From Nemertoderma westbladi (lineage: Eukaryota > Animalia > Xenacoelomorpha): a stretch of 60,593 nucleotides of DNA. The notes under the pieces are model-generated. The model was given only the letters and a program-made list of their open reading frames with translations, was not told where the DNA came from and ran no database searches. Shown in pieces: positions 7,592-60,593 of this stretch (position 1 is the stretch's first letter; every line of letters starts with the position of its first letter). The DNA lies in contig JAUCBJ010005901.1 in NCBI GenBank assembly GCA_032718475.1, positions 1 to 60,593 on the forward strand, read 5' to 3'. The position numbers were made by a program, and so were the translations under genes.

Positions 7592-7616
7592 TTAACTAAT
7601 TAAGTTAGATTAATTC

Positions 7617-32659: not shown

Positions 32660-34528
32660 TTAAAATTTAATAAACTTAGACACGCACTTGCCACATATCA
32701 CGAAGCAATGCTCATTACAAATGTAATCATCACAATTACAACATGAAAGAAATGTTTTCAAATCTTTAGATCTATCGCATTCCACACATCGACGTCGCTT
32801 TCTCTTACGTGATTCAGCTATTGAAATCAGATTATTCGAGGTTGCTATATTACTTCCTTCATTATCATCATCCAGTCTACGTGCATTGCGAATAACTAAC
32901 AATGCTGCTTCAGTACGAGGCATAGTAGTTCGTGTCAGTAGTGTTGGACCAATTAGTTCACGACCCAATCGTTCCAAGAACAAACGCCGTTGGTTACGTT
33001 TATGATTGAAGTAGTCTGGAAATAGGTCCATCCAGATGCAGAAGGCATTATATCCAGAGATGCCAATTATATGACTAAATACAACGACGGGCCATCTTCG
33101 AGTTTTTCGTTTCACTGAGTATTCTTCCAAACACTTATCTACTGCATCTACACCTCCCTTAGTTTTATTATAATCCATGATCATTAGAGGTTTCTTCTTA
33201 TCACCAACACTGGATAATTCATTCCCACTATGCATCGTACTCAGTAATGCAACAATTTTACCTTTCTTGGGGCAATATGAAACTATAGTGGTATCATTAG
33301 TATGTCCAAATAAACTGCTAAATGGTTCTCGAGATTGAGTAGCAACAAACTCCAATGGGAGTTCTGGTTTGTTTCTTCGAAGTGTTCCTAATAAGGTTTG
33401 CTTTCGTTTCAACATCTCCTGACCCAAACTGTACGAGGTGTAAAAGTTGTCAGTTGTCACATTTCGTCCTGGCAACCCAACAGTTAGCTCCAAAGCAACT
33501 CTCTGACCTTGATTCCGCTCAGGGCTGTCACCTTCCTGCTTTCCAAGATACGGTTGAACATTGTAAATGTAATTATTGTTTTCAGCTGTAACAGATGTAC
33601 ATGTCCAAAACTTCAGCCCATATTTTGCAGGTTTCTGCGGCATATATTGACGGAAGGAGCAACGCCCTCTAAATTTGACTAATGTTTCATCAACGCAGAG
33701 ATACTCTTTTGGAACATATGCTAATGCTAACTGATTTGTAAATTTATCCCATAAATCACGAATCGCGGCAAATTTATCGACTTCACGGCGACGTTTAGCT
33801 TTTTCATCAAAACGCAGCATTCCAGATATTTCTGAAAACCTATTTTTAGACATTGTTGCAGCGAAAATAGGGCGACCGGATTCACTATTCCAGAGCTGAA
33901 CAATAGCTTCATTAGCAGAACGATAAACTCCTGATAAAACTAACAGTCCCACATAGGCTTGGAGTTCTTCAGTTGTCAGTTCTTTCCACTTTTTAGCAGA
34001 TTTAGCAATAGCATGTAAATTCGTCATTTCAATAACTAGATTCATCATTCTATCAGTAAAAAATAGCGAAAATGCCGAGGAAATAAAACTACATGATGTC
34101 ACAGCAAGCCGTGTTGGACCTGTTCTACCATGGATAATGTTTTGTGGTCGAACCTTCCCTGCTATTGTTGGTGGATTCTTTCCCCAATTAATGGTTTTAT
34201 TAGTGTCCTTATGACGAGAATGGAATTCAGAATCGCCGCCATATTCACCGTCACAATCCACATCACTGCCATCCAATTCATCGTTGGAATCGCTATCAGG
34301 GCCTTTATCATCTGCCTCTTTTATTGGTACTCCGGCTTCAGATTCATCACTACTCGATTGATCATCGTCGTCATCATCAACAGTGCAATCGTTTTCATCG
34401 TCATTATTCTGTTCTAAAATCGGTGCAATATTCAGATGTTGATAGGGCAATTGCTGGCGTGGTAAACGATTTCTTCGGGGATATTCTTTTCTCAACGGCT
34501 GTTCGACATCACCTTGCACGTCATCCAT
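32660..34528 (-). CDS. piggyBac transposase, intact 622-aa ORF
   Basis: Acidic N-terminus, VDETL...KPAKYGLK, TDNFYTS, YNKTKGGVD, and a C-terminal Cys-rich domain (C..C...CCNCDDYICNEHC...C..C). Confidence 0.95.
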   Translation of the reverse strand: MDDVQGDVEQPLRKEYPRRNRLPRQQLPYQHLNIAPILEQNNDDENDCTVDDDDDDQSSSDESEAGVPIKEADDKGPDSDSNDELDGSDVDCDGEYGGDSEFHSRHKDTNKTINWGKNPPTIAGKVRPQNIIHGRTGPTRLAVTSCSFISSAFSLFFTDRMMNLVIEMTNLHAIAKSAKKWKELTTEELQAYVGLLVLSGVYRSANEAIVQLWNSESGRPIFAATMSKNRFSEISGMLRFDEKAKRRREVDKFAAIRDLWDKFTNQLALAYVPKEYLCVDETLVKFRGRCSFRQYMPQKPAKYGLKFWTCTSVTAENNNYIYNVQPYLGKQEGDSPERNQGQRVALELTVGLPGRNVTTDNFYTSYSLGQEMLKRKQTLLGTLRRNKPELPLEFVATQSREPFSSLFGHTNDTTIVSYCPKKGKIVALLSTMHSGNELSSVGDKKKPLMIMDYNKTKGGVDAVDKCLEEYSVKRKTRRWPVVVFSHIIGISGYNAFCIWMDLFPDYFNHKRNQRRLFLERLGRELIGPTLLTRTTMPRTEAALLVIRNARRLDDDNEGSNIATSNNLISIAESRKRKRRRCVECDRSKDLKTFLSCCNCDDYICNEHCFVICGKCVSKFIKF

Positions 34529-34704
34529 GTTAATGATTATTATAAGATGTAAAAGGGAGATTCTGTCTATTGTACAGTACCGTGTACCGGTACCGGTACA
34601 GTACCGTGTACCGGTAACTGCAATATCAGAATTGTCACACTTTGTTCAACAAATTTAATAATATATTTATTGAATATCCCTCCAAAAACAAAATAAAATG
34701 CCTT

Positions 34705-38960: not shown

Positions 38961-39634
38961 ACGGGTCCGATTCATTGCTCTTAATTAATTAATTGTCGAT
39001 AAATTAAACTGGCATACTTTTGAAGAAAACTGGAGAATAATTTAATAATATTGGCAGAATATTTTATTTTACGACAAATAAATTTCTTAACTAAAGGACC
39101 GAAACAGAAAGTAAAAGTAGCAAATAATTATATAATATTAAATTTTGCCTTTGGTTTGATGATTCTGAAGCTATAGGCCTACTGGTTTTCAAGGTTGCTG
39201 ATCACGATTCAAGTCGTTAAAAATCACTCGTTTTAACGCAACTATTAATGTCTTAAAATCAGGTTGATTTGGTAATGATTTTTAGTATCAAATTTGTGCT
39301 ACTTGTATTTTTCGTGTTCCAGGGGGATTTCGCATTCAAAATGACAAAAAATGTTCTCGAATGTTATATTAAATTTCTATAATCGTAATTGTTGCCGTTA
39401 TTCCTAACGCCAATGTAGGTTTGAGAGGGTTGTGGATCTCAGCAATACTAGTCACCGGATATTGGATCAGGGGGTGGTTGGATAATGCAGGCAAAACAAA
39501 AAGAATGAGTTGGGTTGAATCATCAATTTATTCTGACTGATCTTGTTTTCTGACGGTTTTAACACTGATTCTAAATATATGGGACCAATACGCCAATCTA
39601 AATATAATATACCCAATGAATGAGTTTATAACAT

Positions 39635-42134
39635 TGTTGGATTATTTCACTGTTAAGTAGCAATCTACAGTATCACATAAAAACTTTCTAAATCCGACAT
39701 ATTTTGACTTGATTTGTAGTAATGTAATATGCCTACTTCCTATCAGTAGATATAAGTACACTGGTGATTCTATTGGCACAGTGGTCAGATGGGTTAAGGC
39801 GTTGGTTACATTCTAGGTCGGTCATGGGTTTGAATCTTGGTCGGGAAATTTGCATTGGGCTATTAATTTTCGATTTCATTAAACTAGATAAGCCAATGAG
39901 GTGCGTACAACACATGGAATGGTGGGTTGGGCCAATCATAATAGGGCATTTAAGAACCTATTGCTCCAATGTGCAGCCATGGAATGTTGTAGAATGTTCT
40001 AGTTAATTCCATGTCCAGTATTTGCTATATAAAGGGCGGTTTACCCTTCGGTTATCACCTAACACAATCACTTGTATTACACTCTTGACTTAATCATTTG
40101 TTTAGATTTATTTGTAAAAATTAAGTTTGATAAGTCTTTAGCAATTACGTTAATATACTGTAAACTCTTCAACATGTACGTTTTAATGTGTCCACCTTTG
40201 GGACAGCCAAACATTTGGGGAATGGCTGCCTAAACCGTTAGGCCCTCAGCAATGCAGGGAAAGGATGTCCGCAACACACTAGAGCGCCCATATTAGATTC
40301 ACCCGCACTCCCGTTCGAAGCATGCCCTCTTGCCATACAGCGTCCACTTCAGAGGAAGGTAAGACTTTATTTGACGCCCTTGCCTGCAATAAGACCTTAG
40401 ATCAGGGTAAAGCGTGACACCGTCCTAGGATGCCGTAAAATTTAAGATTAGATATTTTGGATTCAGACATAGGCAAAAACCCCGGATCAACCTGTATCTC
40501 CTACAGGTGTGAGCTATTGCTGTTTGTTAGTACGCGCAAGTACAATTTAGGTGCGGATAGCACATGCTCTATAATTTGGTGAGTTGCAGTACTGACAGTT
40601 ATGTACAGCTTCACTTTGTAGCCTATATAGTTTGCCTGCCCCTGTCTGAGCCCGAAATATTTGATCAGGCAAGAGGCAGCTTTCTGCTACTGGTACATAT
40701 TTGGATTAGATAGGTTACTAACATCCTACCGCACCTTGCCATGTACTAATAGGTATTTACTGCTAACCACTGCAGTAACAAAATTCTAGAATCAAATTTG
40801 TATACCAGATCAGCTAACCTAAGGTAGTAATTAACACCTATTCTCTTATCTCATAATCAGAATCTGGTATTAGTGCCGATCACGGGTGTAGTTAATAACA
40901 CCATAATTGCCCGGTTGAGTTGTGGATAAGGAGGAGAGAGCTTTGACATCAGTTTGTAAGTATTGATCCTACAGCGTGCAACTAGTTATTCGAGTAGCTA
41001 GCGCCTGGTATTGTTTTGACTAAAATCACTAAAACCTATTATAATGGCGATACACCAAAATTGTCTTATTCGCAACACACACACATGCGTCCTAAAACAC
41101 ACACACGCGTCCTAAACCACATTTTGAGACCTACTAGCTACTGATTTACATTAGGTTACTTTTCAGTAGGATTTATTCTATAGTTTCTACTATTTTGTAG
41201 TTTTGTAATTTGTGGAGATATTTAGTATTTAGTTTTACGGCAAGAGGTACTTTAGGCATACACCCTTTTTTGACTGTTTTCCTATGGGCAGTATTGTTAC
41301 GCTAGTCTGTTGATCCACTAGCTCGTTCATAAACTATATAAATCACACTGCGGCAAGTTTACATTATTTAGGTCCATTAGCGATAGTTAGGATACGCTGC
41401 GCGGGGATTGTTTTCCCGTGAGTTTGGTCTGTCACTGTAGACTGTACATCTGCCTCACCAGTTAGAGGCCGGTTATCCTGTTTTGTCTAGTTCGCCTGGG
41501 CATTTGACTTGCCCACGCTTTAAAATAGACACCAGGCTCCATTCCTCGCCAGTAGTAGTTTGCGTATTTAGTATCTGTTTGTTTAGATACCCTGGACTGG
41601 GATTTATTGTCAGATACTCTATGAGCCCGTATACACTACTAGATCCTACAGTAAGGTACATCGTTACTAGGATCCGGTAGGCGGTATACTACTGGACTTT
41701 TCAGTAGGAGATATTTTATAGTCTAGTATTCGTAGATTGGTAGATTATAGAATGGACCCTACCAGAGAGTACATAAAAGTAGGAGATATTTTACAATCTA
41801 ACATTAGTAAGATTAGTAAATTGTAGAATAATTTCTTATTTGTATGTAGCTAGTAGTTTCGTATTTGATAAAAGTAGGAGATACTCTTATTAAATATTTA
41901 GTAGGAGTAGTATTCGCTATTGTACTTCGTAGCTAGTAGTTTCGTATTTGGCTAGCTGTAGATAGTTAGATAGTTTGTAATTATTTTGTTTTACGCTGTG
42001 TGTGTGTGGTGCTTTTTTCAGTACTTGAAAAGGTACGCAAGGTTTAAAGACCAATTTGTATCGGTACCTAGGAAAATTTTTTCGAAGAATAGTTAGTAAA
42101 ACTCTCACCTTCGATTTTTCAGGACTCAAGGACT
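39635..42134 (+). mobile_element. Long (~2.5 kb) LTR of a BEL/Pao-type family, older copy
   Basis: Colinear with 55311-57940 from TG(T/A)TG.ATTATTTCACT to CAGGACTCAAGGACT; visibly diverged. Confidence 0.75.
39890..40060 (+). promoter_or_regulatory. LTR Pol II promoter (CCAAT boxes, TATA, Inr-like)
   Basis: GCCAATGAG and GGCCAATCAT, TATATAAA at 40026, then CCTTCGGTTATCAC; all conserved in the second LTR (TATAAAA at 55809). Confidence 0.6.
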
Positions 42135-43189: not shown

Positions 43190-45932
43190 ACTTTCCTTGA
43201 CAGACCACCTTTCCTGCCGACTTGGAGCTTCACAGCTTCAGCGACGCTAGTAAGGGTGGGCTGGGGGTTACCTTATACCTCAGACGACAAGTGACTTCGG
43301 ACAGCTACGAAGTGTCTCTCGTTACTTCAAGGGCAAAAACAATGTCATTGAAGTACATGACGGTATCTTGTGGAGAGCTACAAGCATGGACGATATCCAC
43401 CGATATTGTCAGTCTAGTTCAACGCGAGCTGGAGGCTAACTTGAAGGTCACAATTTTGGACTGATGCGATGTTAGTACTTTGGTACATAAATAACGACAC
43501 ATTCCAGTTCAAGACTTTCGTAGCTAACAGACGGGCTGAAATACTGGACCAGTCACTCAAACAAGATTGGCGTCACTGTCCAGGGAAACTGAACCCAGCT
43601 GACATTGCATCACGGGGAATGCTATCCATAGACTTTTATAAACCGGACAATAAGTCCTTTTGGTTTAGAGGAACCAACTTCCTACAGCGACCATCGGACG
43701 AATGGCCACCGTTACTTGACGCGACAACCTACACCATACCGGAGGGTGCCGAGATCAAAACCGACACTGTTGTCAAATCAAAAGCGATTTCACCAGACGT
43801 TTCGCCAGATTGTTCACCAGATGTCTCGCCAGATTATTCGCCAGAAGCGACACCAGATCCGGATCATACACCAGATTGCTTTATGGAGCTCTCGACAGAT
43901 TGTCTACCGGACGTCTCACCAGACTTTCCACCAGACATCTCGACAGACAGTCCACCAGACTTTAGACCAGACACTCTGACAGAAGCTACGCCAGACTCTC
44001 TTTGGGACAGATGACAGAACATTTCGCTGGAAGTCAGCGATATGTTTCACCAGACGTCTCACCAGACTGTTCGCCGGATGCCTCACCAGACTCTCTACCA
44101 GACTTTCCACTAGACGAACCACCGGAAAGTAGCGACGTGTGCTATGAAGCTGAAATGACACCATTGGAGCGGACTAGTACACACCTATTAGGTATTACCA
44201 ACTCACCTACTTTGACTTCCTTGAACAATGACGGTGTGGCAACAGCGATCACACTCCGCTCAAGGAAAATACTAGGTTAGGAGGCTTACAAGCCGACAGG
44301 AACACACTGGTACCGTAGAGTTGAAACCATTACTACCAGTCAATTCACTGAGTGCGGACGGTAAAGGTAAGACCGTGGAGATTGAAGTACTTAAGATCTC
44401 AGACAAACCTATTGTACAAAGGGAGACACTCACCGGAAGGCCCGCAGGACTACCAAGTCCGAACAAGTATCCACAATTTGACTATACCTTACCTGATGAC
44501 GTCACCAACACTTATGTTGACAGGATAGTTAACTTAACTAGATCATGGATGGAAGCGTGCCACAAGTTAGCATGGCTCAAACGTTTGAGACAATATGCCA
44601 GAGGCAAACGTGACTTTCCAAGAAGACTTACCTTGGCTGAAATTGGTAGTTGTGAAGTTGATATTATTAAACATTATCAATTGCGATATTTCGCACGAGA
44701 GTTCACAGCGATCAATCAGGGTAAACAGATTAAGTCTTCACCGATCTTGAGTTGGAGTCCAATAATTTACAACAAGGGCTTACTTTGTCACAAGTCCAGA
44801 ATCCAAAACATTGACTTCGCCTTAGACTGTATGATACTGGACGCACACGTACAACTCAAACACGTAGATAGACACCACTGTCTATCACACTTACGCTTGA
44901 GGTTTGTACTGATTAGACCTAGTAAGGCATTGAGTTCAGTGACACGTAACTGTATTATTTGTAAGAAGGTGCACGCGAGGATAGGACACCAAGAGATGAG
45001 TGAACTACCACTAGCAAGGTTACAGGCCCTTAGACCCCCTTTCACTGAGACAGGGATAGACTGTTTTGGACCCATAATTGCGAAACGTGGAAGGTTACAG
45101 GTAAAACTCTGGGGATTAATCTTCACCTGCATGGCCAGCAGAGCTGTCCGTATTGAACGTGTGACAAATTTAACCACCAACGCCTTTATCCTAGCCTTAC
45201 GGCGATTTATCGCTAGATGTGGATTGGTCAAATCCATTTATTGCGACCAAGGGACTAACTTTGTGGGTGCACGGAATGAAATCTCCAGAGCCTTAAGGAG
45301 GTTGGACCAAAATAAAATTTCCCATGAACTATGTCCTCACAACATTGTCTGGAGCTTTAACACTTCTGACAGTCCATGGAGAGGCGGAGTTTGGGAAAGA
45401 TTAATTGGGTCAATCAAAACGGCTATGGCGAAAGTAATACCGACGCAACGCATCTTGACAGACAACCAACTGACGACGTTGTTAATAGAAATCGAAGCGG
45501 TTTTGAACACAAGACCTATCGCTTTGATCCCAGACAACAACGACTCACAGTTTGTCTTGACACCAGTGCACCTGCTTATGCAGGCGCCGATGACGTTGTT
45601 GTCCACTTCGGTACCTGTCGATAGCGATGGTTACGGCAACAGAGCTTGGAAAATCGCTCAATTATTAGCCAACAAATTCTGGGAAATATGGCAGAAGTAC
45701 TATTTGCCCTCTATTTCGGCCAGGACATCTTGGTATCTTAATACCCGATGTCGGAGACGCAGTGACCACGTTTTATTGGCTGAAACCAATTTGAAAAGGC
45801 GGTTTTGGCTGACTTGAGTCCTTTTGACCACACACCCGACATCCGGTGTTGTAAGGACAGTAACTGTACGGACTATTGACGGTCGTACCGTAGATAGGCC
45901 TGTACAAGCCTTGAGGAGACTAGAAACGTGAT
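43190..45932 (+). pseudogene. pol: BEL/Pao pol 3' part (RNase H, integrase, C-terminal DUF5641-like region), with stops and frameshifts
   Basis: ELHSFSDAS, FKTFVANR, WRHCPGKLNPADIASRG, C..C, TGIDCFGP, CDQGTNFVG, GGVWERLI, LNTRP, GVVRTVTVRT...RPVQAL. Confidence 0.92.
43790..44125 (+). repeat. 12-bp coding repeat (xSPD/xPPD tetrapeptides) between RNase H and integrase
   Basis: SPDVSPDCSPDVSPDYSPEATPD...; CCAGA(C/T) recurs about every 12 bp. Confidence 0.85.
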
Positions 45933-46678: not shown

Positions 46679-49189
46679 ATGTCTGAGAGGATGTATAAGG
46701 AGTTACGACAGGGATTCACACAGGAGCAGGAGCACCAAGCGCCATTTAATCAATGTGGAGAAAAGAACTTTAACGTGGTTGGAGTTGAGAGTATGGCTAG
46801 GAGTACAGCCAAGCTCGCGAAGTCCAAGGCGGATCCAAACGTTATGCGACAGCGACTAGACGCCTATAACAAAAGAGCGGAGGAGTTACGCGTGGAGTTC
46901 AATGCGTTGTACCCCTACGATGCATTATGTGATGCCAGCGACATTTGCGAGGACCCCGACACGGAGATACGCCGATTATATCACATGCTGCAATATTTGA
47001 CGGCGAGTGAACCCTTGCCTGCAGCTAGGGACAAATTTGATGGGATGCATATATATATTATAGGGGATTATAGACGCGCTTGAGGAGTGGATCCGGAAAC
47101 TAAGGAAGCGTTCTCCATTTATAAACTGTTCTATAAATGTGGAGGATGTATGCGTGCGCAAGACAACGCGATCCCTATGCGCTTGAACCCGGAAAACCCC
47201 GAGCCGATATTAGCGCGTTGCCCAAACCACCAAATTCTGCGTTACCAAGAAGGCAGATACCCTTTGACGAATCCGTACCACTTGTTAAAGATTAGTGGAC
47301 CAAACGCGGGCGAGATTGTTATTTATGAACCCAAATTAGTCGAGCCAGACGTCTATAGTATGGTAGTAGACGAGTCTTACAAGTAGACACAGGAGAAACG
47401 GGAAACTCTAAGCCTCAACAGGGCATACAAGGCATACGAGAAAGGCGAGATCGTGGAGTTCGGCGGAAGGCTCGCGAGCCTACCATTCTATTGGATATCC
47501 TACGATCAAACCAAACCCAAGGAGATGACACCCGATCTTTTCGATAGTATAACCTTTGCTCAGCATTTGTCGAAGAGACTGCAGATACCACACATCAAGA
47601 TGACGAGAGAATCTCAACCCCACCCTACCAAGGTGGTAGTACCGGTCGCGAGGACAACCAGCTTTCCTATTAGCATACCGACCCGAGAGGAGATAACTTA
47701 CAAGATCCCCATAGTAGAACACCCGGAGATCATTTCAAACCTGGATTTCCTCCCATTGGTAACATTTGGCGATGTGTTAGAGGCGGCGGAGTTACATAGA
47801 ACCATAGTTCAGAAAATCTTATGCAATGTGCCTCCACATATTACCGACTTTAAGGAAGTGGATCGCGCGGGGACGGATATCGCACCTTGCATTCTGTGGG
47901 GGTATTTGGCGAAGACGATTTGATTATGGATCGGAGTCGGCACATTCGATACCGACACCGACATTGCGACCAATTGGACGGGGAAACCTATTAGCTTCGA
48001 CAACGAAAAGTCTATAGGGAGGATTTGGAACCCTACTGATGACTTACTCGATGATTGGGATGCGACGAGTCGATCTCTGCGGGAGAATGGATACATGTTT
48101 TATGATAATGAAGGAGGAAGCCATCAGCAGAGCCTCACTTCAAAGACCATACAAATTCGAGCACCAGATGGAGTGCTACACGTCTTCAGCCGACAGGGGA
48201 GCGATCAAAAGATGTCGACTCCGGAAGGAATGACGCAAAGACAAGCTATGATAAAATGGATAATTAAATCCATGGAACTAGCTTGTAGCATAGAGGCTAG
48301 GATGTTACCAAAGGCTGTGCGCGACGTTGTACTCAACAGGAGTATCGTCAAAATCGGATCCGGTGTATGGGAGGACCTTATTAGCAACTTCGCAGGAATG
48401 CCTGAGGAGGAGGATCGATTGCCTACGCCCTACATAGATACTAGACCATTGTTGCTTTGGGCCATCGAGCAAGGATATTTTTGAGAATATAACATGCATA
48501 AAACTGGAACGGGTAATATCTCATATCTCATGTTTAGTTGGGATTTTAAGGAGAGCAAGAGGAGCAAATACACAGACATATACAGTGAGGGAGATACCCC
48601 TAGCGTAAACAAGTTTGAGTCACAGCTAAAGTGGCGAGGATGTGTATATTGGGCGATCACCTCACCTCTGCGAATAATCTTGCAATACTACTTGGTGATT
48701 GAATCATCGGTGAATGTGTGTTTCATCGCCGATGTAGTGTCTAGGACTCTAAATCGACATCCGTTATGTCTCGTCGAAGGACATACAGTTTACGAGGGAG
48801 GAAGGACGCATACTGACATATTCCGCCGATTTCTCCAACCATTTTACTACACCGATGCCCACTGTGAAGTTTTCATGCAAGCGGGATTCAGTGTTTTTAT
48901 GGACGTTTATCTCACTCACGCGGGAAGCCTAGTCGACAGACCGTCGATGTTGACGTTAGTACCCTACGACGGGGAACGCCACGCGGAGATCAAAGGCCCG
49001 GAAGGATCCTGGAAGGCACGCGCCCCTACCGCTCATCATCCCGATGAGGATCCAACCGAGACCGCGACAATCGACGAACTGTTGCGGCAACTCATAAAGA
49101 TAGAGGAGAATCTTCCGAGGAAGATGCGAACCGAGATACGCGAGGTAGAGAAGAGCGACGCTGTGGTTTGTGTGCAACCTACGGAGTAG
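46679..49189 (+). pseudogene. BEL element extra ORF (~836 aa, one frame, 4 nonsense codons) with a WRN/EXD/RNase D-like DEDDy 3'-5' exonuclease domain
   Basis: Five track ORFs share one frame and the gaps between them are open. Motifs: FYDNEG (ExoI), TIQIRAPDGVLHVF, LPKAVRDVVLNRSIVKIGSGVWED (ExoII), YIDTR, and a tentative ExoIII at PL..ILQYYLVIE. Confidence 0.75.
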
Positions 49190-49859: not shown

Positions 49860-50830
49860 AACTGTGTCTTCTTTAAAGTAACACATTAAGAACATTATAT
49901 ATTAAATTTGCAACTGTAACACTATCTTCCTTATATATATCAGTCAACTTTAGGTTGATATTGTATTTGGCACATATATGTTTTGTCAAAGAACAACTAA
50001 CTGATAGGACATGTTGTTCGTCTTGTACATCTGTTGCGTTAAAAGGACATGTCCGTTGTTCCCTCGGAGTCCTTGTCCATCTCCCAGTTTCTACATTTAA
50101 ATTGTGAGATGAGAGTCGGACATGGGTCATTGCTTTTCTGTGATATTCTGGAATATTGATTTGGTGACGTGTGTAAATCTCGTGGACAGATAAGTTGGGG
50201 TTATGTATATTTCTATGTGATGGATTTGGTACGACTGGACATAGATACTTTTTGTTTTCGTCTCTCGATATCGCGTTCTGTATATTTATTTTTGGATATT
50301 ATGGAGGCGATGTGTTTCCACGCCGGTGTGGAATTTGTTCTGGATATATACAAGGCATAACTTAAAGGGTAGTCAGTCTGATTCATTTGTGTCATTTATC
50401 AACATGGATGAGTAATACTTATGTTAACCTTTCCTGCACCATAGCTAGTAGTGAGGGTAGTTCAAGCTCTAGCAACGAGGTGTCGTGAGGTGTAGATGAC
50501 CTGACACTTATAAGCACCTTAATGGCCGTCATATATGTGCGTTCTAGTTCTTTTATATTGGAACAAAACCACGTTTCACAACCATATAACAATGATGCAT
50601 TAAGGCATGCATTAAGTACCTCTTTCTTGATAGTGAATGGCAAGTCAGGATTACTTGTAACAAAGGTAATAAATTTAAGCAGGTCCTTCTGTTTGTCATT
50701 ACTCTGTTCTTGTATCATGGAATTAACGCGGCCGTCGCAGGTTATAATACATCCAAGGTAATTATATTTGTCTCAATGTTTGACAATGCACCTATCTATT
50801 ACAATCGTGTCTTTATCGGTACCAACACCA
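49860..50830 (-). mobile_element. 3' fragment of a LINE (related to 37401-38960)
   Basis: YIYLG, LLYGCETW, RLSSHNLNVETGRW...C...DEQHV..C. Confidence 0.8.
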
Positions 50831-50930
50831 TTTATTACCATAATATGACGGGATCAAGGGATCCCGACCGGGTTAAGTTTGTACGCATCACAGCGAGCTG
50901 ATGGCAAGATGGAGAAAAGTTTAAGTTTGA

Positions 50931-51441
50931 TGTTCCTTCGCTCATATAATACAACTGCTAATGATAGCACAGTATGAGATAACAATAATAGTGAATAATA
51001 AATCAGTATGTAACAGCACCGCGATGACGGTAAGACTATAATGCCGGTCTGTACTGAAACTGACAGATTGGATAACTGAATAGTAAATCAGTATGTATGA
51101 GATAATATACGACACACCAATATTACTCCACTGCTACATTACTTTGGCCTCCTACCTAGTGGATGCTCTCCCTCGCTCTCCAGCGATTGGCTAATAACCT
51201 ACTTCACGCCTTTCCACTCTCTGGGAGTGTTTCCCCCCTGTCGCTAGCCCCTGCTAGCTGTTTCCCCTTCTGAGGTGGTTTGACCTCTAACCTCCCTTTA
51301 TGTGGCTTTGGGTTTGTACTGTCCCCGATGTTGGTTGTGATACGAGATTAATTATTGCTAATCTCGTATCTCCAACATATTGCTGAAAATGTCACTATCC
51401 CATTTTATGAGGGTAATGAAGCGGTATTGAATCCGCTTACA
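50931..51441 (-). mobile_element. Probable 3' LTR of the minus-strand BEL-like element
   Basis: On the minus strand a PPT GGGGGGAG directly precedes TGTAAGCGG at 51441. The candidate end ...GGAACA at 50931 is inferred, since the partner LTR is outside the window. Confidence 0.5.
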
Positions 51442-52118
51442 CTCCCCCCATGCTATCTTCCCAGTGAGAAGATAGCATCATCTACAAGTGTGCTTCAATT
51501 CCGCTGGAACCCGATCTACTATCAGGTGTGGGGTGGAGTTCTTTTCTTGGAGTCGGCTTTCCAGGACGCTCCCTCTGGGTATGATATTACTACCCCTACT
51601 TGGTGCAACCGCAATCTATGTTGCACCAAGACATCTGATGTCTCGGTTCGAGACAATTGTGGACTCCTCTCACACAATTTTTATATCTCCTCACTCTGGA
51701 CTAACTCTAACTTCACTTCAGCTCCACTCTAACTCCACTCTACTCTATCTTACTCTCGGACCTCTCCGTCCCTCACTCTGCCTCTTAATACTCGCTCCCC
51801 ACATCTGAATTGCACCCGTATACTTTCCACACGCGTCAACACCTCCTCTCGCTATCTTCCCTGCGCTTCTGTACTCAACCCTTACTTGTTTCGCTCCACT
51901 CACTCCTGACGAGCCTCACCCTCCCCTTCTGTGCCGTCGCACTCAAGAAGTGTGATTCATCTAGTGTCCCGTCCTCCTGTCATAGTCTATTGGTCCCCAG
52001 TCCCAGTAGCTAGTTGGAAAAGGTTACATGACTATAGTACTTACTTTGATTATATTGATTCTAATTATATTCTATTGATTATTACATTATTACATCCCCA
52101 CATCTCCCCCTCCAAGTC

Positions 52119-54106
52119 CTAGTTCGCTCCTCCCGTCTTTGGGAACCATCTCAATTCCTTCCCTCTGTTGTCGTCCTGTCTCGGTCGCTTCCTTGTTGTC
52201 GTCGCTTCCTTGTTCTTATCCTCCTTAAGGCTCCTCATTCTCACTGTTACCTCCTTACTGATTCCCGTGGTCGATTCCTTGGGCCCTGGTGTTATTAGCT
52301 CCCGGTATCGCTTCGCAGGTGGCCCTTCCGAATGCCCCTCCTGCTTCCCCCTAGTAGCGTCCCACAAGATCATCTTCATGGTCCGCGGCACATGCTCCGC
52401 CAGGAAATCTCTGAACTCTCCTCTGTTCTCTGGTGCCCATCTGTCTAAATACCTCTGCATATTGATGACTCCACCATACGATGCCGCCATCGCTACTTCT
52501 TGATAAGTAAATGGAAGTCTTCTCTTGATGATTTCCAGATGGGCCTCCTGGTTAATATTGAAGAAACCCCACCGGAACTCCTGGGCCTTCATTCTCTGCC
52601 ACATCATGACGCCGACATCGGCCCACTCCTCGAATATCTTAAACTTCTCCTCGTCATCCATCCAGTCACACTGGCGCCCATACTGCCCTCGAAACTTACA
52701 CTTAGAACACCGGTTGTGCAACCGCGGATGATGGTGCTCCCCGCGAAATCCATCGCCAGCTCCTCACGCACCCAGGCCCGCTTGCCGGGTTTATCCCAGA
52801 AGGCCCTCGCAAGGCCCCGTAACTCGTCCAAGTTCTGGGCCTCGAACCCGTAGTCCTCTCCTCTAGCTTCCGCCTCTCTTTCGTCTGCTTCCCTCCTTTC
52901 TCGTCTGCGATTTCTTCCCATCGCTTCTCCTCCACTCTATCCGCCTCCAGCTTCTCCCACCTCTGATATGGCGTATCCACCTCCCTGTCTACTAGATATC
53001 GGCAGTTGTAGTATACCGACTCGCCCTTCAGCCACGGGTGGTCTGCCAGACCCTCGAAGGCCACCTTGAAGGCTCTTCTGTAGTTCAGGGGTGATCCCGA
53101 CAGCAGAAACGACGTTGGCTCTCTTCCGATAACCACGGCCATGAATAGGTTTAGTAAACCTATCATTACCCAATCCTCCTGCAGGATATATCGCTTCTGA
53201 TATATCTTTATCGCTCATCTCCGGAATTGATACACCTCCTGTTTCCCTGGCCTTGCTCCCCACTTTAGCGAGTTTGCCAACTCCGCTCCGTACTCCTCCC
53301 TGAATTTACCCCAGTCCATCGGCTTGTGGCAGATGAGCCCCATGAGCTGGCCCATCGCCACTGCTCCACAATGTCCTGTGTTCTCTACCAATCCCAACCC
53401 AGCTGACCCTGTCATGGCCATGTAGACCGTTTGCATGTCCAGGAGGTTGGGGGTCTCCGGTCCGACGATCCTCTCCGCATCGTCGCGGATCGCCGATCCC
53501 ACCTTCATCGTCGACTTCTCCCTTACTAGGTTCTGCACCGCCCTTGGCAACCGGTTCAACTTCGGCCCGCGCTTCTTCCCATACTTTCCCAGATCGAACA
53601 GGAATATGTCCCCATTTAGCGTAGCCAAATGCAGAAGTATGGTTCTGGCCGACCCCGCCGACCTTCTTCTCGAACCCTCGTCGTCTTCCACAGTCCCTTC
53701 GTCATCTAGGACCATATATCCTCCCCTGCTGACGGACTCTACGAACCTCTTTCAGTCCTTTCTCGGTGGTTCCCTCGGATACTTCGGTATCCCGAACTTC
53801 GCCTCATCTCTCATCTCCCTTCACTACGTAGTGGAAATGCTCGAGGATTGCGTTATCTAGCAATGGCATCCCGTAGGTCCCGACCAGCCGCCTCTCGTGC
53901 ACCTCCCTGAAATGGTCCTGCAGCGCTCGCGCTTTGTGACCCTTCTCTAACCGCTCGTAGTATCCCCTCGTCTTCTCTTCCAGATGCCTCTGGGTGAAAT
54001 CTACTAGTATATCCTTTCCACCTCTTTCCGCCTTTCTCTTTCTGACAAGTCTCTCCGCCATTTCGAACATTCCCAATCGCTCACCCACAAGGTGGTGCCT
54101 TACCAA
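52119..54106 (-). pseudogene. Second extra ORF with a DEDDy 3'-5' exonuclease domain and a C-terminal Cys cluster (stops and frameshifts)
   Basis: VLDDEG (ExoI), LLHLATLNGDIFLFDL, LPRAVQNLVREKSTMKVGSAIRDD (ExoII), LLDMQ, then QKRYILQED (ExoIII-like) in the same frame after one stop; HNRCSKC...C downstream. Confidence 0.78.
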
Positions 54107-54569
54107 GGAGGCTCAAAATAGATGAGTGATGTAGCTAGGATGGTCTGTGCGGTCCGATAATGGCCTATCTCTATCAGAACACTAGGTTTTTACACTATAT
54201 TTACCTATGTACCCCCCAAAGTGCTAAATTTTCCTAAATTCCCTAAATTATGTTCTAGAATTTTCTGCCTACTATTACCATAATTTGTTGAATTTGAATT
54301 TTTATAGTAATTTTAATACTACTACTGTGCTATCAATACTCATAATGGGTTATTTCTGCTTAAATAACCCCTATAGTTTGCATACAGGGTAGACTAGCTA
54401 TTCCCTACTGTGCTAGTCTGCACCAGGTAACCTCCTGGCTCTGTATCAAACATTCTGACCTACTCTACGGGCTGTGCAGTACAGTAGTCTGTCTCGTGCG
54501 GCCTACACGGTCTGTCCAGCTGTATCCACGTGCCCCCCCCCCTCTCGCTCTCGTGGATATCATACTCTC

Positions 54570-55085
54570 CACTCTCTTACTACTAACCCTACTAACTCTC
54601 TAACTCTACTAACTCTCTAACTCTTACTAACTCTCTAACTCTTACTAACTCTCTAACCCTTACTAACTCTCTAACACTTACTAGCTCTCTAACTCTTACT
54701 AACTCTCTAACTCTTACTAACTCTCCAACTCTTACTAACTCTACTAATGGTACTACGTACCCTCTTACTGTCTAACTCTAACTCTACTAACGGTACTACG
54801 TACTACGTACCCTATTACTCTCTAACTCAAACTCTACTAACGGTACTATGTACCCTCTTACTCTCTACTAACTCCACTAACGGTACTATGTACCCTCTTA
54901 GTCTCTAACTCTTACTAATGGTACTACATACCCTCTTACTCTCTACTAACTCCACTAACAGTACTGCGTACCCTCTTACACTCTAACTCTTACTAATGGT
55001 ACTGCGTACCCTTTTACACTCTAACTCTTACTAACGGTACTGCGTACCCTCTTACATTCTAACTCTAACTCTACTAACTTCTATC
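54570..55085. repeat. Compound minisatellite (CTCTAACTCTTACTAA-type short units grading into ~36-bp GGTACTACGTACCC units)
   Basis: Direct inspection. Confidence 0.9.
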
Positions 55086-55254
55086 TGCCTACTTACTTAC
55101 TACTACGTACTATCTTCTATTACTTTCCCTTTCTAATTTTATAGCTTTCTTTCTACTGCTTTATTTTATTATTTTTATTTTTTTTACATTTTGTGGGAAG
55201 GGCGTCTTGCCCTCAATCCCACCCCCCTCAGTCCAATACTTGGATGACTAAACT

Positions 55255-55310
55255 CTATGGTTCCCCTTCCAATAGGCAACACTTTCCTACAGCCTCCTCT
55301 TGTAGGTCTT
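55255..55310 (-). pseudogene. Extreme C-terminus of a BEL/Pao pol, cut by the 55311 LTR insertion
   Basis: The minus strand reads KTYKR(+2 nt)AVGKCCLLEGEP*, resembling the BEL pol ending Y.R.V.K.CLLE. Confidence 0.45.
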
Positions 55311-57940
55311 TGATGAATTATTTCACTATAAGGTAGCATTTGTAGTTTAACTTTAACGTAAAAACTTTTGAAAATCCGACGTATTTTGATTAAGTTACAG
55401 TAATGTAATATGCCTATTCATATTTGTACACATAAAACCCTTAGGTACTCTCGTGGCGTAGTGGTCAGATGGTTAAGGCGTTGGTTACATTACGTAGGTT
55501 ACGAGTTCGAATCCCAGTCGGGAAATTTGTATTTTGGGGCCATTTATTTTTGTGTGGTGCTAATTGGTAGGCCAATGAGAAGCGTACAGCGTAGCGAATG
55601 ATGAGCCAGGCCAATCATAGGGCATAAATTATTTTATTGCTCAAATGTGAGGCAGTGGAAAATTCTGTTAGGATTCCATGTCCCAGATTAGTGTAAGGGC
55701 CGGACTGCGTTGAACGATGAGCTGGGCCAATCATAGAGCACGAAGCACTTCATTGCTCAATGGTGAAGCTGTGGAAAATTCTGTTTAGTTTCCATGTGCA
55801 ATTTCTAGTATAAAAGGCCGGTTTGCCTTCGGTTATCACTTCTTAGAATGTTGTTATCATCCTGATATCGTTTATTCTTGTAAAATTAGTTAATTCGGTT
55901 TCTTGTTGAAACTTTATTTGATAAATCCTTTTGTAAAACTGTAAATATACTGCAATTTCCTGACATGTTTTCTTTTGGTCCGACTTCGGGACAGCCGAAC
56001 ACCAGGGAGATGGCAGCCTAGATCGTTAGGCCGTAAGCAACGCAGGGAAGGGATGTCCACAACACGCTAGCGCCCACATTGGATCGACCGCGCACCCCCT
56101 TTGCCCCTTCGAAATACTCCACTTGCTATGCAGCGCCCGCTTTGTGAGAAGGTAAGACTTTGTTCGACGCCCTTGCCCGCCGTAAGACCTATAGATCAGG
56201 GTAAGCGTGACATCGTACTGGACGCCGCAAATTTAGGATCAAATAATTATATCCAGACACCCCCCCTTTGTCAAGTCCCACGAATCCCTGGGTTAACCTG
56301 TACTTCCTACAGGTGCGAACTATTGCCATTCGTCAGTACGCGAGTACATATTAGGTACGGACAGCATACGTTCCATAATTTAGTGATTCATAGCACTGAC
56401 TGTTTGGTACCGGTTCGCTTTGTAGAACGTACATTAGTACCCCCCCCCCCCCCTGTCTGGAGTTAGCTATTTGATCAGGCAAGGAGCATTTCTGCTACCG
56501 GCACACTGCTTGGCCTAGGGAGGTTTATTAATATCCTACCGCGCCTTGCCACGTACTGATAGGTATTGCTGCTAACTACCGCAGCAACAAAGTTCTAGAA
56601 TTAAATTAGTATACCAGATCAGCTAACGTACGGTAGCGATTAACCCCTATTCTTATCTTACAACCAGAATCTGGTATTAGTGCCGATCACGGGTGTAGTT
56701 ACTAACACTGTGGTTGCCCATTGGGTTGTGGATAGGAAGGAGAGAGCTTTGACGTCATTCGTGAGTATAAAGTTCTACAAACGCGACTAGTTTATTTTAG
56801 TAGCTAGCGCACGGTATCACTTAGTCAGAAAATCACTAAAACCTAGTAAAAGGAATTACACGAAATTGTTTTATTTGTAACACACCCACACACACACGCC
56901 CTAAAACATATTGCCCTTAAAGTTCTACTAGCTATAGCGTACTATACATTACGTTAGGTGGAAATTATCTGTATTTGTAAAATTAGGATCTGATTTAGTT
57001 GCGGCAAGATAAGGAGTATTTCACTTTCATTATTAAACTGTTGTTTGTCTGGACAACGGTATTGTTACATTTAGGCCTGACCTTTTAGACTGACTTCGTA
57101 CAGGGGGATCAGTTATTGTTACATTTAGGCACGACCTTTAGGCTGATTTCGACAGGGATGATCAGCATTGTTACACTAGGTCTGTTAACCACCTAGTTCG
57201 TATATAAACCATATAAATCACACCGCGGCAAGTTACTGTATTTAGGACTGTCAGTGATAGTTAGGATTCGCTGCGCGGGGATTGTTTTCCCGTGAGTTTG
57301 GTCTGTTACTGTAACTGTACATCTGCCTCACCGGTTAGAGGACAGGTATCCTTCTGTCTAGTACGTAGGCATTAGACCCGCTCACGTACATAGAATAGAT
57401 ACAAGGCTCTGTTCCTCGCCAGTAGTCGTTTGTGTACTGTATCTGTTTGTTTAGATATCCTGGACTGGGATTTGTTGTCAGATACTGTACGAGCCCGTAT
57501 ACATTACTAGAGTCTCATAGTAAGATACATCGTTACTAGGATCTGGTAAGCGGTATACTACTGGACCCTTACAGTAGGAAGTATTTATTAAATATCTCGA
57601 CCGAAAGTGCGTGCGCATTTAAAGTGAGATATAGATAAATATTTGTTAGCTATTGTAAGTAGGAGATATTTAAAATTTAAGGTTAGTAAATTTAGTAATT
57701 TAGAACGTCCCCTGCTTCAGTAGGCTTTTAGGGTAGCTAGTACTTTCGTATTTAATATTTGACTAGCTAACAGTTAGTTTGTAGCACTTTGTTTTACGCC
57801 GTGTGTGTGCGGTGTTACTTTTCGGTACTTGAAAAGGTACATAGGGTTTAAAGACCAATTTGTATCGGTACCTAGGAAGATTTTTCGTAAGCGTAGAAGT
57901 AAAACTCTCACCTTCGACCTTTTCAGGACTCAAGGACTCA
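55311..57940 (+). mobile_element. 5' LTR (~2.6 kb, TG...CA) of a younger BEL/Pao-type element that continues beyond the window
   Basis: Homologous to 39635-42134; ends ...GGACTCA and is followed by TTTC-TGGACCGCTTCGAGGATT (PBS-like), a leader and a long ORF. Confidence 0.78.
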
Positions 57941-58511
57941 TTTCTGGACCGCTTCGAGGATTAGACCGCTTTTCGCAAAGTTTGGGAGACAATAAATTCG
58001 TCCGCGCCGCCGAAAAACGGAAAGACCCACGTCCGGTTTGTATTTGGGAATTTGTACGACTGGAAGATCAAAGGAACGTAAGTTTTACGACTCGCGTCGT
58101 TCAAACTTAAGAAAGCACAGTAGTACTCAAAATTTGTGGGTTTCACTGTCTATTAGTAGTGTTGTTGGTACTTATTTTCCCGTTAGACGTTGCTGTTTGG
58201 CCTATTGTTTATACTTGTTGATCTACATTTTGTTAACGTATACCGTTATCTCACTTATTCGTACAAATTTAGCCGGTAGGCTAGATTACTACTTATTTTA
58301 TTATATACCTTGTTAGTTTTATTTGTACCGGTTAGGGTATATATATGATATATATATATATCAAGGTAAGTTTGACATTTGTACATTTCGACATTTTGAC
58401 ATTTCGACATTCTGACTTGTTGATTTATTTGTACCGGTTAGGTAAGTTTGACACTTCAACATTCAGACACTTTGACATTTTATTACCCGTACTTGACGTA
58501 TATAATAAGAC

Positions 58512-60593
58512 ATGAGTGACACACCCCATTCGACGAGATACCCACCTACCGACTATGACTCGTGCGACCCGGACAGATCGACAGTAGACGAACCGAGAAG
58601 GAGAACCCGAGATTCCACCGATGTCACACCGCTTGCGTCGCCGGTACCCCGAACGGAAATACCGGAAGCCGCAACGCGTGGCGACGGCAGGATCGAAGAT
58701 TTCCTTACCGTCCCGCAGACTAGATCACGGGAACCGGACATGGTAAGTTCGACTGGAAGCCAGGAGAACGTTATTAGAAGTATAGGAGGACACATGGCCC
58801 AGATTACTCGGAACCTCGGAGAAGGTTTTCGCGTTTTACGCGAGTTAACCGCCCCGATGTCGAGATACGAGTTCTACACCTTACAGGTAAGGATAGAAAG
58901 TAGGGTACATGCCTCCGTAGATAAACTTAAAGGTTTGCACGAACTTGCAGAGTTGCGTGGCGACAACTTTACTCAGGTAAAGATAGTAGATAAATTGGTA
59001 AGTGCGAGAGAAAGCCTTATCCAGTTTAAGTCGGTGATAAGATTGGCTCAACAGGAGCAGTTCGACCAACTGCTAGGTGAGTCAGTTTCGGACGCGTTGT
59101 TACAACCCGAAGAGGAAGAAGAACTCTACTGCCTGGACGGAAGGTTGGAAACGCTGACCAATTTTCTTCGTAGATGCGGCGTACCGATCGACGAACCGGA
59201 AGTCGAACCGCGAGGGACGACGGAAGTTCTCACTACGGAAGGCTCGCGAGCCTACCAACATCCACCACTGGATAGATCGTTCGTTAGCGTACGGAGCGAC
59301 GTTGGCAACGTTGGCGACGTTAGTAGAACAGCGTCTGGAATTACTCGACAACAACAGGAGGTTGCACGCCGACAACAAGTCGCCGAGGAAGAAGCGCGAC
59401 ACCAGATGGCACAGATCGCCATCGAAGGAGAGAAACAACGTAGAGAAGACGAGGCAAGAATTGCACAACTCAAGGCGCAAGCTGAATTCGAAGCATCAGA
59501 AATGCGCAGACTGGAGGAGGACTTAGCGCGAGAAGCGGCAGCCGACGAGTTAGCACGGCAGAAAGCAGCATCCGACGTTCGTGCCAAGTTGGAGGCGCGG
59601 CAAATAAACGCTCGATTAGCTATACAGGAAGCGGAATTAGCGGCACAACAACAGGACGCAGATCGACGCGAAAGGGAGATGCAACTACAGTTCGAATTGA
59701 ATCGTAGATCGCGCGAGACAGCGAACGCGCAAGCGGACCTCGAACTCGACGCGAGAGATAGATCTATGAGATCGCGAACTGGACACGACTTGTCTGCCCT
59801 GGATCGTATGGAAGCTCGATATCGCGGAATACAGAAGCGGATCGAGGAAGGAAGCGTGGGAGCGATAGATCGAGGAGAGGAGTTCGTCGAGGATTACTGT
59901 AAACGTTTTCCCCAAGTTATTCCTATGCTCAAACCCACGACTCCGATAAAACCGGTCTTCGTTACGAAACCTAAGGAAATAACGCCTGTGCGTTCGACGC
60001 AAGGCAACAGGTTTGTTGTGACGGAAATACCGCAACCTAGGGCGACTTCATCGCCAATTTTAGCAGGTAACATAACTAGTCCACCTACAGTAAGTCGTAG
60101 TCTACTTGTAGGAAGAGAGGAACCTGCGTTTATGACCATTAAACAGGTGAGTAAACCATTACAAGTTAAACCTGTGACGTGCTGTGCAAATCCAGTTATT
60201 TACAGACCGACTACGAAACCCGACTATTTCACTCGACCGTTGACACAATGTTCGACGCAACCTACGACTTCGTGGAAGGCTTGCGAGCCTACCGAACTAC
60301 GAAGGAGGATGGAGGTGGGTAGTACCCACGGGATCGGACAACGTATAGCGAGACCTACGACTTCGTGGAAGGCTTGCGAGCCTACCGAACAACGGAGAGC
60401 CGTAGATTCCGGACCGCAACGGACGAAAACGAGAGTAATACGCCGGACACGAACCCGCCAACCACCTTATCCGGACGACAGCGATTCATCTAGTGACTCG
60501 GAGTCGACGGAACGGGAAATATTCCGTACTGGAGCGGCGGAAGATTGCAAACGAGAGGAACGATCGACGAACCCCTATATCGACAATCCTCCA
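58512..60593 (+). CDS. Open ORF of >=694 codons running off the window; probable Gag(-Pol) N-terminus of the BEL element
   Basis: ATG at 58512 (MSDTPHSTRY...) with no stop to the window end by manual translation; long E/R/Q/A coiled coil; absent from the track because it has no stop. Confidence 0.8.
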   Translation, partial: MSDTPHSTRYPPTDYDSCDPDRSTVDEPRRRTRDSTDVTPLASPVPRTEIPEAATRGDGRIEDFLTVPQTRSREPDMVSSTGSQENVIRSIGGHMAQITRNLGEGFRVLRELTAPMSRYEFYTLQVRIESRVHASVDKLKGLHELAELRGDNFTQVKIVDKLVSARESLIQFKSVIRLAQQEQFDQLLGESVSDALLQPEEEEELYCLDGRLETLTNFLRRCGVPIDEPEVEPRGTTEVLTTEGSRAYQHPPLDRSFVSVRSDVGNVGDVSRTASGITRQQQEVARRQQVAEEEARHQMAQIAIEGEKQRREDEARIAQLKAQAEFEASEMRRLEEDLAREAAADELARQKAASDVRAKLEARQINARLAIQEAELAAQQQDADRREREMQLQFELNRRSRETANAQADLELDARDRSMRSRTGHDLSALDRMEARYRGIQKRIEEGSVGAIDRGEEFVEDYCKRFPQVIPMLKPTTPIKPVFVTKPKEITPVRSTQGNRFVVTEIPQPRATSSPILAGNITSPPTVSRSLLVGREEPAFMTIKQVSKPLQVKPVTCCANPVIYRPTTKPDYFTRPLTQCSTQPTTSWKACEPTELRRRMEVGSTHGIGQRIARPTTSWKACEPTEQRRAVDSGPQRTKTRVIRRTRTRQPPYPDDSDSSSDSESTEREIFRTGAAEDCKREERSTNPYIDNPP

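What the first reader, a model, noticed from the sequence alone, without database searches (positions are those of the whole stretch)
50931..55310. A second, divergent exonuclease-carrying LTR element on the opposite strand: the cargo looks like a lineage-wide module
Seen, in minus-strand order: BEL-like pol end (55310-55255), minisatellite spacer, an ORF with VLDDEG / LLHLATLNG / LPRAVQNLVREKSTMKVGSAIRDD / QKRYILQED, PPT, candidate LTR. I see no DNA similarity to the 46.7-kb ORF. The two proteins still share the same ordered motifs (DxEG, LPxAV...K(I/V)GS, KW, Q.{1,2}Y) but have different flanking domains. Inference: two distinct BEL families with different LTRs keep an exonuclease ORF in the same position, which suggests an old, selected and possibly undescribed exonuclease-bearing BEL clade rather than a one-off capture.
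Basis: partly seen in the sequence, partly recalled or inferred. Interest (0 to 1): 0.82.

Follow-up and report, generated by a model that had tools for sequence, protein, structure and literature searches.

The report
Dead retrotransposon carrying WRN-like exonuclease cargo
This is the broken tail end of a repeated jumping gene in an animal genome, split by a second jumping gene; it likely belongs to the BEL/Pao group and likely carries a captured WRN-type exonuclease gene, a cargo already described in rotifer jumping genes, and a shared origin with the similar neighbouring element is possible but not shown.

Summary
The anatomy is largely real. On the minus strand lie a 56-base pol tail, minisatellites, a broken extra ORF, purine tracts and an LTR. 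Contigs of three runs and the start of a flanking LINE frame put the LTR's outer end at 50846, not 50931; its inner end (51441 or 52102) is open. The element is a repeat family, and uninterrupted copies exist, so the LTR element at 55311 is a nested insertion. The exonuclease call has moderate support: ESM Atlas points to PF01612 (0.94), and a profile of 14 WRN/EXD2-like enzymes ranks this ORF first of 276 window ORFs (0 of 500 shuffles). Pfam, PHROGs, NCBIfam, PDB sequence search and an RNase D profile gave nothing. ExoI and ExoII acids are present; ExoIII has Glu for Asp. The neighbour's 47.9-kb ORF scores only weakly. The two share one 24-residue block, a generic part of this fold, and are no closer to each other than to bacterial enzymes. 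No relative was found elsewhere, so a lineage-wide clade is untested. DEDDy cargo is known from rotifer LTR elements; my searches found no BEL/Pao case. New variant of a known kind.

The parts
55255..55310 (-). Last codons and stop of a pol-like gene, with one frame break; cut off upstream by the insertion at 55311
   Evidence: Translation. Resembles by eye the pol end of the neighbour, which Pfam assigns to the end of DUF5641 (E 0.019). BEL assignment inferred.
55311..60593 (+). Nested LTR element (C) inserted into the pol tail; begins with TG; gag-like ORF from 58509 runs off the window; sister of the element at 39635
   Evidence: 72-84% DNA identity to 39634-42134. Contigs of all four runs leave the stretch at 55294 and do not enter this LTR. 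Gag label inferred from position.
55200..55240 (-). Purine-rich motif just after the pol stop, far more widely shared among contigs than its surroundings
   Evidence: Summed depth about 120,000-376,000 at 55200-55234 against about 3,600-10,000 at 55255-55289 in X1-X3; purine tract at 55229. Function unknown.
54590..55070 (-). Minisatellite spacer (18-base unit x8.8; 38-base unit x6.9), variable in length among copies
   Evidence: many joints inside it among contigs.
53807..54070 (-). Probable N-terminal piece of the extra ORF (88 codons from an ATG), in another frame than the exonuclease part
   Evidence: no family hit. Its link to the exonuclease part is inferred.
53173..53712 (-). WRN/EXD2-like DEDDy exonuclease domain: ExoI D 53706 and E 53700, ExoII D 53481, ExoIII Y 53190 with E 53178 in place of D; in-frame stop at 53215-53217
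   Evidence: Atlas PF01612 0.94, 179 of 256 features; HMM 7.0 bits, 0 of 500 shuffles, hhalign E 9e-4; collinear alignment. The stop is not shared by the other copies laid.
52119..53172 (-). Downstream coding pieces of unknown function (frame ending at the stop 52702-52704, then a 214-codon frame 52119-52763)
   Evidence: no family hit at useful E-values; unrelated to the neighbour's pieces.
52103..52113 (-). Purine tract just after the last stop, followed by TG at 52102: alternative PPT and LTR start
   Evidence: Terminal inverted match 7 of 10 with the 50846 end (p about 0.03, best of 6 pairs tried); TATAA at 51685.
51442..51478 (-).
   Evidence: Fold z -3.4, 1 of 200 shuffles; bin 51422-51608 is the deepest inside the element.
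50846..51441 (-). 3' LTR, minimal extent (596 bases; 1257 if it starts at 52102); ends in CA at 50846
   Evidence: No second copy in the window.
50300..50845 (-). Flanking LINE-like fragment into which the element is inserted
   Evidence: Frame opens at 50844 and matches another fragment at 37.6 kb (tblastx E 3e-11); LINE label from recalled motifs.
44276..45931 (+). Neighbour element A: decayed integrase and pol end
   Evidence: DUF5641 E 3.5e-6, above the curated cut-off; DUF5641 as a BEL/Pao mark is recalled.
46679..49189 (+). Neighbour's extra ORF (836 codons, four internal stops), with a possible exonuclease domain at about 48098-48706
   Evidence: HMM 1.9 bits, third of 276 ORFs, 0 of 500 shuffles; hhalign 1 of 100 shuffles; ExoIII position ambiguous.

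Best explanation
This is the decayed 3' end of one copy of a repeated LTR retrotransposon family, likely BEL/Pao, whose extra gene between pol and the LTR likely holds a captured WRN/EXD2-type 3'-5' exonuclease that in working copies would trim the 3' ends of the element's own RNA or new DNA. Shown: the layout, the repeat status, the insertion into a LINE-like fragment, the nested insertion at 55311, and the stops and frame changes that make this copy dead. Inferred: BEL/Pao identity (about 0.75), the exonuclease fold (about 0.8), homology of the neighbour's domain (about 0.6), and an accessory role like the third ORFs of rotifer elements. Least supported: the substrate. I put trimming of the element's own nucleic acid ends at about 0.35, ahead of RNA binding without catalysis (0.25), action against host small RNAs (0.2) and no function (0.2).
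For: Repeat family: 5513, 5882, 9940 and 119 contigs of four runs (at most 3 samples) lie on the stretch, while the flank is held by single mismatch-free contigs. Nested insertion: 5, 5, 6 and 1 contigs leave at 55294 and do not enter the 55311 LTR. LTR end at 50846. Exonuclease: Atlas top three hits PF01612 at 0.94, with ten of the ten best family-bearing hits in one family or clan. A profile of 14 bacterial WRN/EXD2-like proteins ranks the ORF first of 276 and above 500 of 500 shuffles; hhalign E 9e-4, 0 of 100 shuffles. An alignment made mostly of those proteins finds WRN, EXD2 and mut-7 structures first. ExoI, II and III motifs come in order. The stop inside the domain is not shared by the other copies (30, 38, 37 and 2 contigs), so the domain is open at that codon elsewhere in the family. 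Precedent: PMC5408684 (passages).
Against: No exonuclease hit in Pfam, PHROGs or NCBIfam or by PDB sequence search. An HMM of 127 RNase D/NrnC domains gave no score; hhalign with 7 such sequences gave E 0.33. In the Atlas clusters only 11-36% of members carry PF01612, and shuffled proteins reach 0.9 in 4-10 of 100 cases. The WRN-like profile was built after the hypothesis and its score is small (7.0 bits; hhalign probability 23%). ExoII-ExoIII spacing is 97 against 65 and the last acid is Glu. The single-sequence fold failed (pLDDT 33). The alignment-guided fold is circular and mediocre (pLDDT 59; residues 1-27 with ExoI under 50; best Foldseek E 1.4e-3, TM 0.29). Only 56 bases of pol are in view. 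No data on expression, activity or selection.
Confidence: 0.6

Rival explanations
1. One old capture: both elements descend from a BEL/Pao ancestor with an exonuclease ORF, and a wider clade keeps it.
For: Same position after a pol end in two families with unrelated DNA. Shared D-x-E-G, L-P-x-A-V and K-x-G-S, where the 14 bacterial enzymes have K-x-G-V or I. Pairwise score above 1000 of 1000 shuffles.
Against: The shared block is the generic stretch before ExoII and is also matched by bacterial enzymes. Identity of 14-23% is no higher than to bacterial enzymes. Flanking domains are unrelated. Rotifer elements acquired DEDDy ORFs independently at least twice (PMC5408684). No third family was found. 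The neighbour lacks a 3' LTR here.
Confidence: 0.33
2. The domain is a catalytically weak or dead exonuclease fold used to bind RNA, as with EXD1 or Egalitarian, for transport, packaging or as a decoy against piRNA factors.
For: Glu for Asp at ExoIII and a 32-residue longer ExoII-III spacing. PMC5408684 notes inactive DEDD derivatives in piRNA biogenesis. EXD1 and Egalitarian appear among the fold matches, though that model is circular.
Against: Three of four acids and the Tyr are in place, and an Asp follows the Glu directly. Rotifer domains also swap an Asp for Glu (DEED).
Confidence: 0.25
3. The ORF is not an exonuclease; the motif matches are chance resemblance in a decayed accessory ORF of another kind.
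For: All standard library and database searches were blank. The positive scores are small, and the motif pattern was fitted afterwards.
Against: Two unlike methods agree on the same family. The ORF ranks first of 276 and the neighbour's third. The alignment is collinear over about 130 residues.
Confidence: 0.15
4. The pol tail, the ORF and the LTR do not belong to one element but are a patchwork of nested repeats.
For: No contig spans the whole stretch. Depth varies widely along it. There are two candidate PPT/LTR starts. The window is a nest of broken elements.
Against: All parts lie on one strand with steady purine bias (0.53-0.70; skew). Every bin is repeated. The order pol end, ORF, PPT, LTR is the usual one (PMC8742986).
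Confidence: 0.1

Closest known systems
Juno and Vesta LTR retrotransposons of bdelloid rotifers with a DEDDy ORF3 (Rodriguez et al. 2017, PMC5408684; passages read)
   Same: An extra ORF between pol and the 3' LTR with a DEDDy-type 3'-5' exonuclease; one Asp replaced by Glu; activity and role unproven.
   Different: Those are not described as BEL/Pao (BEL and Pao occur 0 times as whole words in the main text; Ty3/gypsy placement recalled). Their change is DEED; here the last acid is changed. Here the domain sits within about 2 kb of coding pieces with unknown flanking parts. Their sequences were not compared here.
Belpaoviridae (BEL/Pao) with a third, env-like gene (ICTV profile PMC8742986, whole text; Atlas virus PMC9094657, passages)
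   Same: Order pol end, third gene, PPT of about 10 bases, LTR; animal host.
   Different: The third gene here looks like an exonuclease, not an envelope; neither text mentions an exonuclease cargo. RT, protease, PBS and the 5' LTR are not in view. I recall, unverified, a report of an exonuclease in C. elegans Cer elements (Malik et al. 2000); that paper is not held.
WRN exonuclease, EXD2 and mut-7/Nibbler (PF01612, DEDDy)
   Same: Ordered ExoI D-x-E, K-x-G-x5-D and ExoIII Y motifs; weak profile match.
   Different: 20-30% identity to bacterial members; longer ExoII-III spacing; Glu at the last acid; below every curated threshold.
Dada DNA transposons with a DEDDy domain (PMC3706591; passages)
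   Same: A mobile element carrying a DEDDy exonuclease, proposed to process its own 3' ends.
   Different: DNA transposons; the domain lies inside the transposase and keeps all four acids.

Membership tests
LTR retrotransposon | LTR with TG...CA ends preceded by a polypurine tract | tested here: met
   CA end at 50846; two candidate TG starts, each after a purine tract.
LTR retrotransposon | Two matching LTRs, PBS and target-site duplication | not testable with these tools
   The 5' half lies beyond the insertion and the window; no genome is held; no second LTR in the window.
LTR retrotransposon | Dispersed multicopy family | tested here: met
   Thousands of 80-100% alike contigs over the element against single contigs on the flank. 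Depth is not a copy number.
BEL/Pao (Belpaoviridae), this element | RT phylogeny, and PR-RT-RH-INT order | not testable with these tools
   Only 56 bases of pol are present; no related locus found.
BEL/Pao (Belpaoviridae), this element | DUF5641-type pol C-terminus | tested here: inconclusive
   The tail is under 20 codons and frame-broken, so it was not scanned; it resembles by eye the neighbour's tail, which hits DUF5641 positions 66-92 at E 0.019.
BEL/Pao (Belpaoviridae), neighbour A | Integrase followed by DUF5641 | tested here: met
   DUF5641 27.6 bits over cut-off 23.1; DUF5641 as a BEL mark is recalled; RT not tested.
DEDDy exonuclease (PF01612) | Match to the curated Pfam model | tested here: not met
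   No hit for the pieces or the X read-through.
DEDDy exonuclease (WRN/EXD2 type) | Profile or feature similarity above controls | tested here: met
   Atlas 0.94; HMM first of 276 ORFs, 0 of 500 shuffles. Small scores, directed test.
DEDDy exonuclease (WRN/EXD2 type) | Four acids D-E-D-D and Tyr in ExoI-III | tested here: inconclusive
   D, E, D and Y present; Glu aligns with the last Asp, an Asp lies one residue on.
DEDDy exonuclease (WRN/EXD2 type) | RNase H-like fold by independent prediction | tested here: inconclusive
   Single-sequence model unusable; guided model circular.
DEDDy exonuclease (WRN/EXD2 type) | 3'-5' exonuclease activity | not testable with these tools
   Needs an assay.
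A single exonuclease-bearing BEL clade | Exonucleases form one group, matching the RT tree | not testable with these tools
   Only two domains are in hand, no RT for this element; their identity is no higher than to bacterial enzymes.

The most novel reading that the evidence does not exclude
A so far undescribed branch of BEL/Pao retrotransposons has kept a WRN/EXD2-type exonuclease in the place of env since a single ancient capture, has swapped the domains around it, and uses it to trim its own reverse-transcription intermediates or to blunt host piRNA processing.
Probability: 0.25. Interest if true: 0.75.

Novelty: new variant of a known kind. Interest (0 to 1): 0.48.

Why it matters
Retroelements lack a proofreading or end-trimming exonuclease, and the same enzyme family (mut-7, Nibbler, EXD1) serves host small-RNA defence (own knowledge; PMC5408684 raises both roles). 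An exonuclease kept in the env slot of two diverged BEL/Pao families would extend DEDDy capture from rotifer elements to another LTR superfamily. It would also offer a multicopy system in which selection on the catalytic residues can be measured from natural copies. If the two captures are independent, repeated capture itself argues for a benefit. As it stands the evidence covers one dead copy, one weakly supported neighbour and one species.

Tried and rejected
No whole genome is held. Family scans without an exonuclease hit: Pfam (12 and 17 proteins), PHROGs (9), NCBIfam (9). PDB by sequence: nothing useful. Homologue searches: none of 836 and none of 997 candidates scored; the neighbour's ORF was not searched there, because the third search went to collecting RNase D proteins. 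The representative library returned 12 hits: all multi-stretch matches, 9 of them TPR proteins by Pfam and 3 without a family above cut-off, so all 12 were dropped as repeat artefacts. Related loci: none in viral contigs or metagenome contigs; one 24-residue match in a bacterial contig, outside the domain, rejected. Plasmid and phage tblastn gave only E 8-9. RNase D/NrnC profiles: no signal by HMMER; right register but E 0.33, 0.12 and 0.056 by hhalign. For the WRN-like profile I fetched 20 matches chosen mostly for short frames: 2 gave no usable frame and 4 fell outside the cluster, leaving 14; 13 of them went into alignment A3. A shared Asp-to-Glu change in both elements was considered and dropped, because the neighbour has a second ExoIII candidate with Asp at near-normal spacing. 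The neighbour's domain was not scored by the Atlas. No RNA holder was listed. No tRNA gene and no Rfam match of weight in 39000-60593. Earlier scan notes held nothing on this cargo. LTR end 50931 rejected.
Full report
Setting. The window is repeat-rich eukaryotic, apparently animal, DNA: LINE fragments, DNA transposons and LTR elements lie nested in one another. No genome is held. I call the minus-strand element of the finding B, the plus-strand element starting at 39635 A, and the element starting at 55311 C.

Anatomy of B. Read on the minus strand, B starts at 55310 with under 20 codons of a pol-like end, broken once, and a stop at 55255-55257. The tail resembles by eye A's pol end, which Pfam places at the end of DUF5641. 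Minisatellites follow at 54590-55070. Coding pieces run from an ATG at 54070 to a stop at 52119: a stop at 53804-53806, a frame change near 53720-53750, a stop at 53215-53217, and near 52760 either a second frame change or a separate ORF.

The LTR. In runs X1-X3 the flank is carried by one mismatch-free contig each, ending at 50875, 50875 and 50873. Contigs built from 31-letter words (recalled for Logan) stop 30 letters into a repeat, which gives 50846, where the minus strand reads CA. A LINE-like frame opens at 50844 and matches another fragment at 37.6 kb. The inner end is open. TG at 51441 follows a purine tract and a strong hairpin. TG at 52102 follows a purine tract just after the last stop, matches the 50846 end at 7 of 10 letters (p about 0.03, best of six pairs) and would bring in the TATAA at 51685, whereas 50846-51441 has no TATAA or AATAAA. 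I lean slightly to 52102. No second copy of the LTR is in the window.

Family and insertion. Six runs were listed, three holding about a third of the sampled words, none on record as RNA. Four were laid (at most three samples). Thousands of short contigs at 80-100% identity cover every bin of B, so B is a repeat family; the tool's depths are not copy numbers. The stop at 53215-53217 is not shared by the other copies (30, 38, 37 and 2 contigs). At the other end, 5, 5, 6 and 1 contigs leave the stretch at 55294, follow the window's letters closely to 55310 and do not go on into C. C is therefore a nested insertion into B's pol, and uninterrupted copies exist. C shares its LTR and leader with A at 72-84%. 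What lies upstream in pol was not established, so BEL identity stays an inference.

Is the cargo an exonuclease? Against: no hit in Pfam, PHROGs or NCBIfam, none in the PDB by sequence, no true homologue among 5.8 billion or 1.8 billion proteins, no score with an HMM of 127 RNase D/NrnC domains, and a failed single-sequence fold. For: the ESM Atlas puts PF01612 clusters first (0.94; 179, 174 and 177 of 256 features; ten of ten family-bearing hits in one family or clan; 11-36% of members carry the family). I then gathered 14 bacterial WRN/EXD2-like proteins out of 20 fetched; an alignment made mostly of them finds WRN, EXD2 and mut-7 structures first. Their HMM scores B's domain 7.0 bits, above all 500 shuffles, and its ORF first of 276 window ORFs; hhalign gives E 9e-4, probability 23%, 0 of 100 shuffles. 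The alignment is collinear from before ExoII to ExoIII. ExoI D-x-E, ExoII D and ExoIII Y are present. Glu stands where all 14 have the last Asp, and ExoII-III spacing is 97 against 65. A fold guided by that alignment gives EXD2 as best match, but it is circular and weak. I put the fold at about 0.8.

The neighbour. A's ORF has 836 codons and four internal stops. Its domain scores 1.9 bits (0 of 500 shuffles, third of 276 ORFs) and E 0.04 by hhalign (1 of 100 shuffles). A and B have no DNA similarity, and their protein score beats 1000 of 1000 shuffles, but through one block of 24 residues that bacterial enzymes also match. Identity is 23% pairwise and 14% in the joint alignment, where B is 20-30% identical to 13 bacterial proteins. 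An ordered-motif pattern fits both and only 5 and 2 of 20,000 shuffles, but it was fitted after seeing them, and A's ExoIII position is ambiguous. None of 12 flanking-piece pairs is related. A has no 3' LTR in the window. Homology is therefore likely (about 0.6), but common capture is not shown (about 0.33).

How it likely works. Shown: a dead copy, inserted in a LINE-like fragment and later hit by C. Inferred: working members express an accessory protein from the slot that env fills in other BEL/Pao elements. My lead reading is 3'-5' trimming of the element's own RNA or cDNA ends (0.35), as proposed but not demonstrated for rotifer ORF3s and Dada transposons. RNA binding without catalysis (0.25), action against small RNAs (0.2) and passenger status (0.2) remain open.

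What is known. Nine searches of the held library were run (listings only, and not all hits were listed). PMC5408684 (passages) describes DEDDy ORF3s in rotifer Juno and Vesta elements, acquired at least twice, with DEED. PMC3706591 (passages) describes them in Dada transposons. PMC6338049 and PMC5718144 (passages) cite the rotifer case. The word exonuclease has no occurrence in the main text of PMC2774666, PMC8556966, PMC6238403, PMC3118150 or PMC9094657 (term counts and passages), and the ICTV profile PMC8742986 (whole text) names only env as a third gene. I saw no supplements, and Repbase, Dfam and GyDB could not be searched. I recall, unverified, an exonuclease in nematode Cer elements; that paper is not held. 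So a BEL/Pao case was not found in these searches, which does not show that none is in print.

Verdict. The exonuclease is moderately supported in B and weakly in A. The lineage-wide clade is a fair hypothesis that these data do not test. New variant of a known kind; interest 0.48.

Noticed in passing
window 39635-42134 and 55311-57938: The element inserted at 55311 and the element at 39635 are sister families: LTR and a leader of over 2 kb are 72-84% alike. The first lacks an evident gag, the second has a long open gag-like frame from 58509.
   Followed up: partly
window 39774-39837 and about 55455-55525: Both sister LTRs hold a tRNA-like stretch with A-box and B-box-like motifs near their start. 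The scan matched the first; the second was seen by eye only. ARAGORN and Rfam call no tRNA.
   Followed up: partly
window 55200-55240 and 51422-51608: Two short non-coding stretches are far deeper in contigs than their surroundings, which suggests cis-elements shared by more families or by non-autonomous copies. The second holds a 13-pair hairpin directly before a purine tract.
   Followed up: partly
window 43788-44139: The neighbour's pol contains an in-frame 12-base minisatellite (SPD-type repeats) between RNase H-like and integrase parts.
   Followed up: no
window 12140-17162: A gypsy-like LTR element on the minus strand with 99% identical 175-base LTRs and long gag and pol frames, apparently young.
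   Followed up: no
window 32660-34645: An open 661-codon frame that looks like a piggyBac transposase (label by eye).
   Followed up: no
window 17846-18963: A foldback element with long inverted arms (354 bases, 93% complementary).
   Followed up: no
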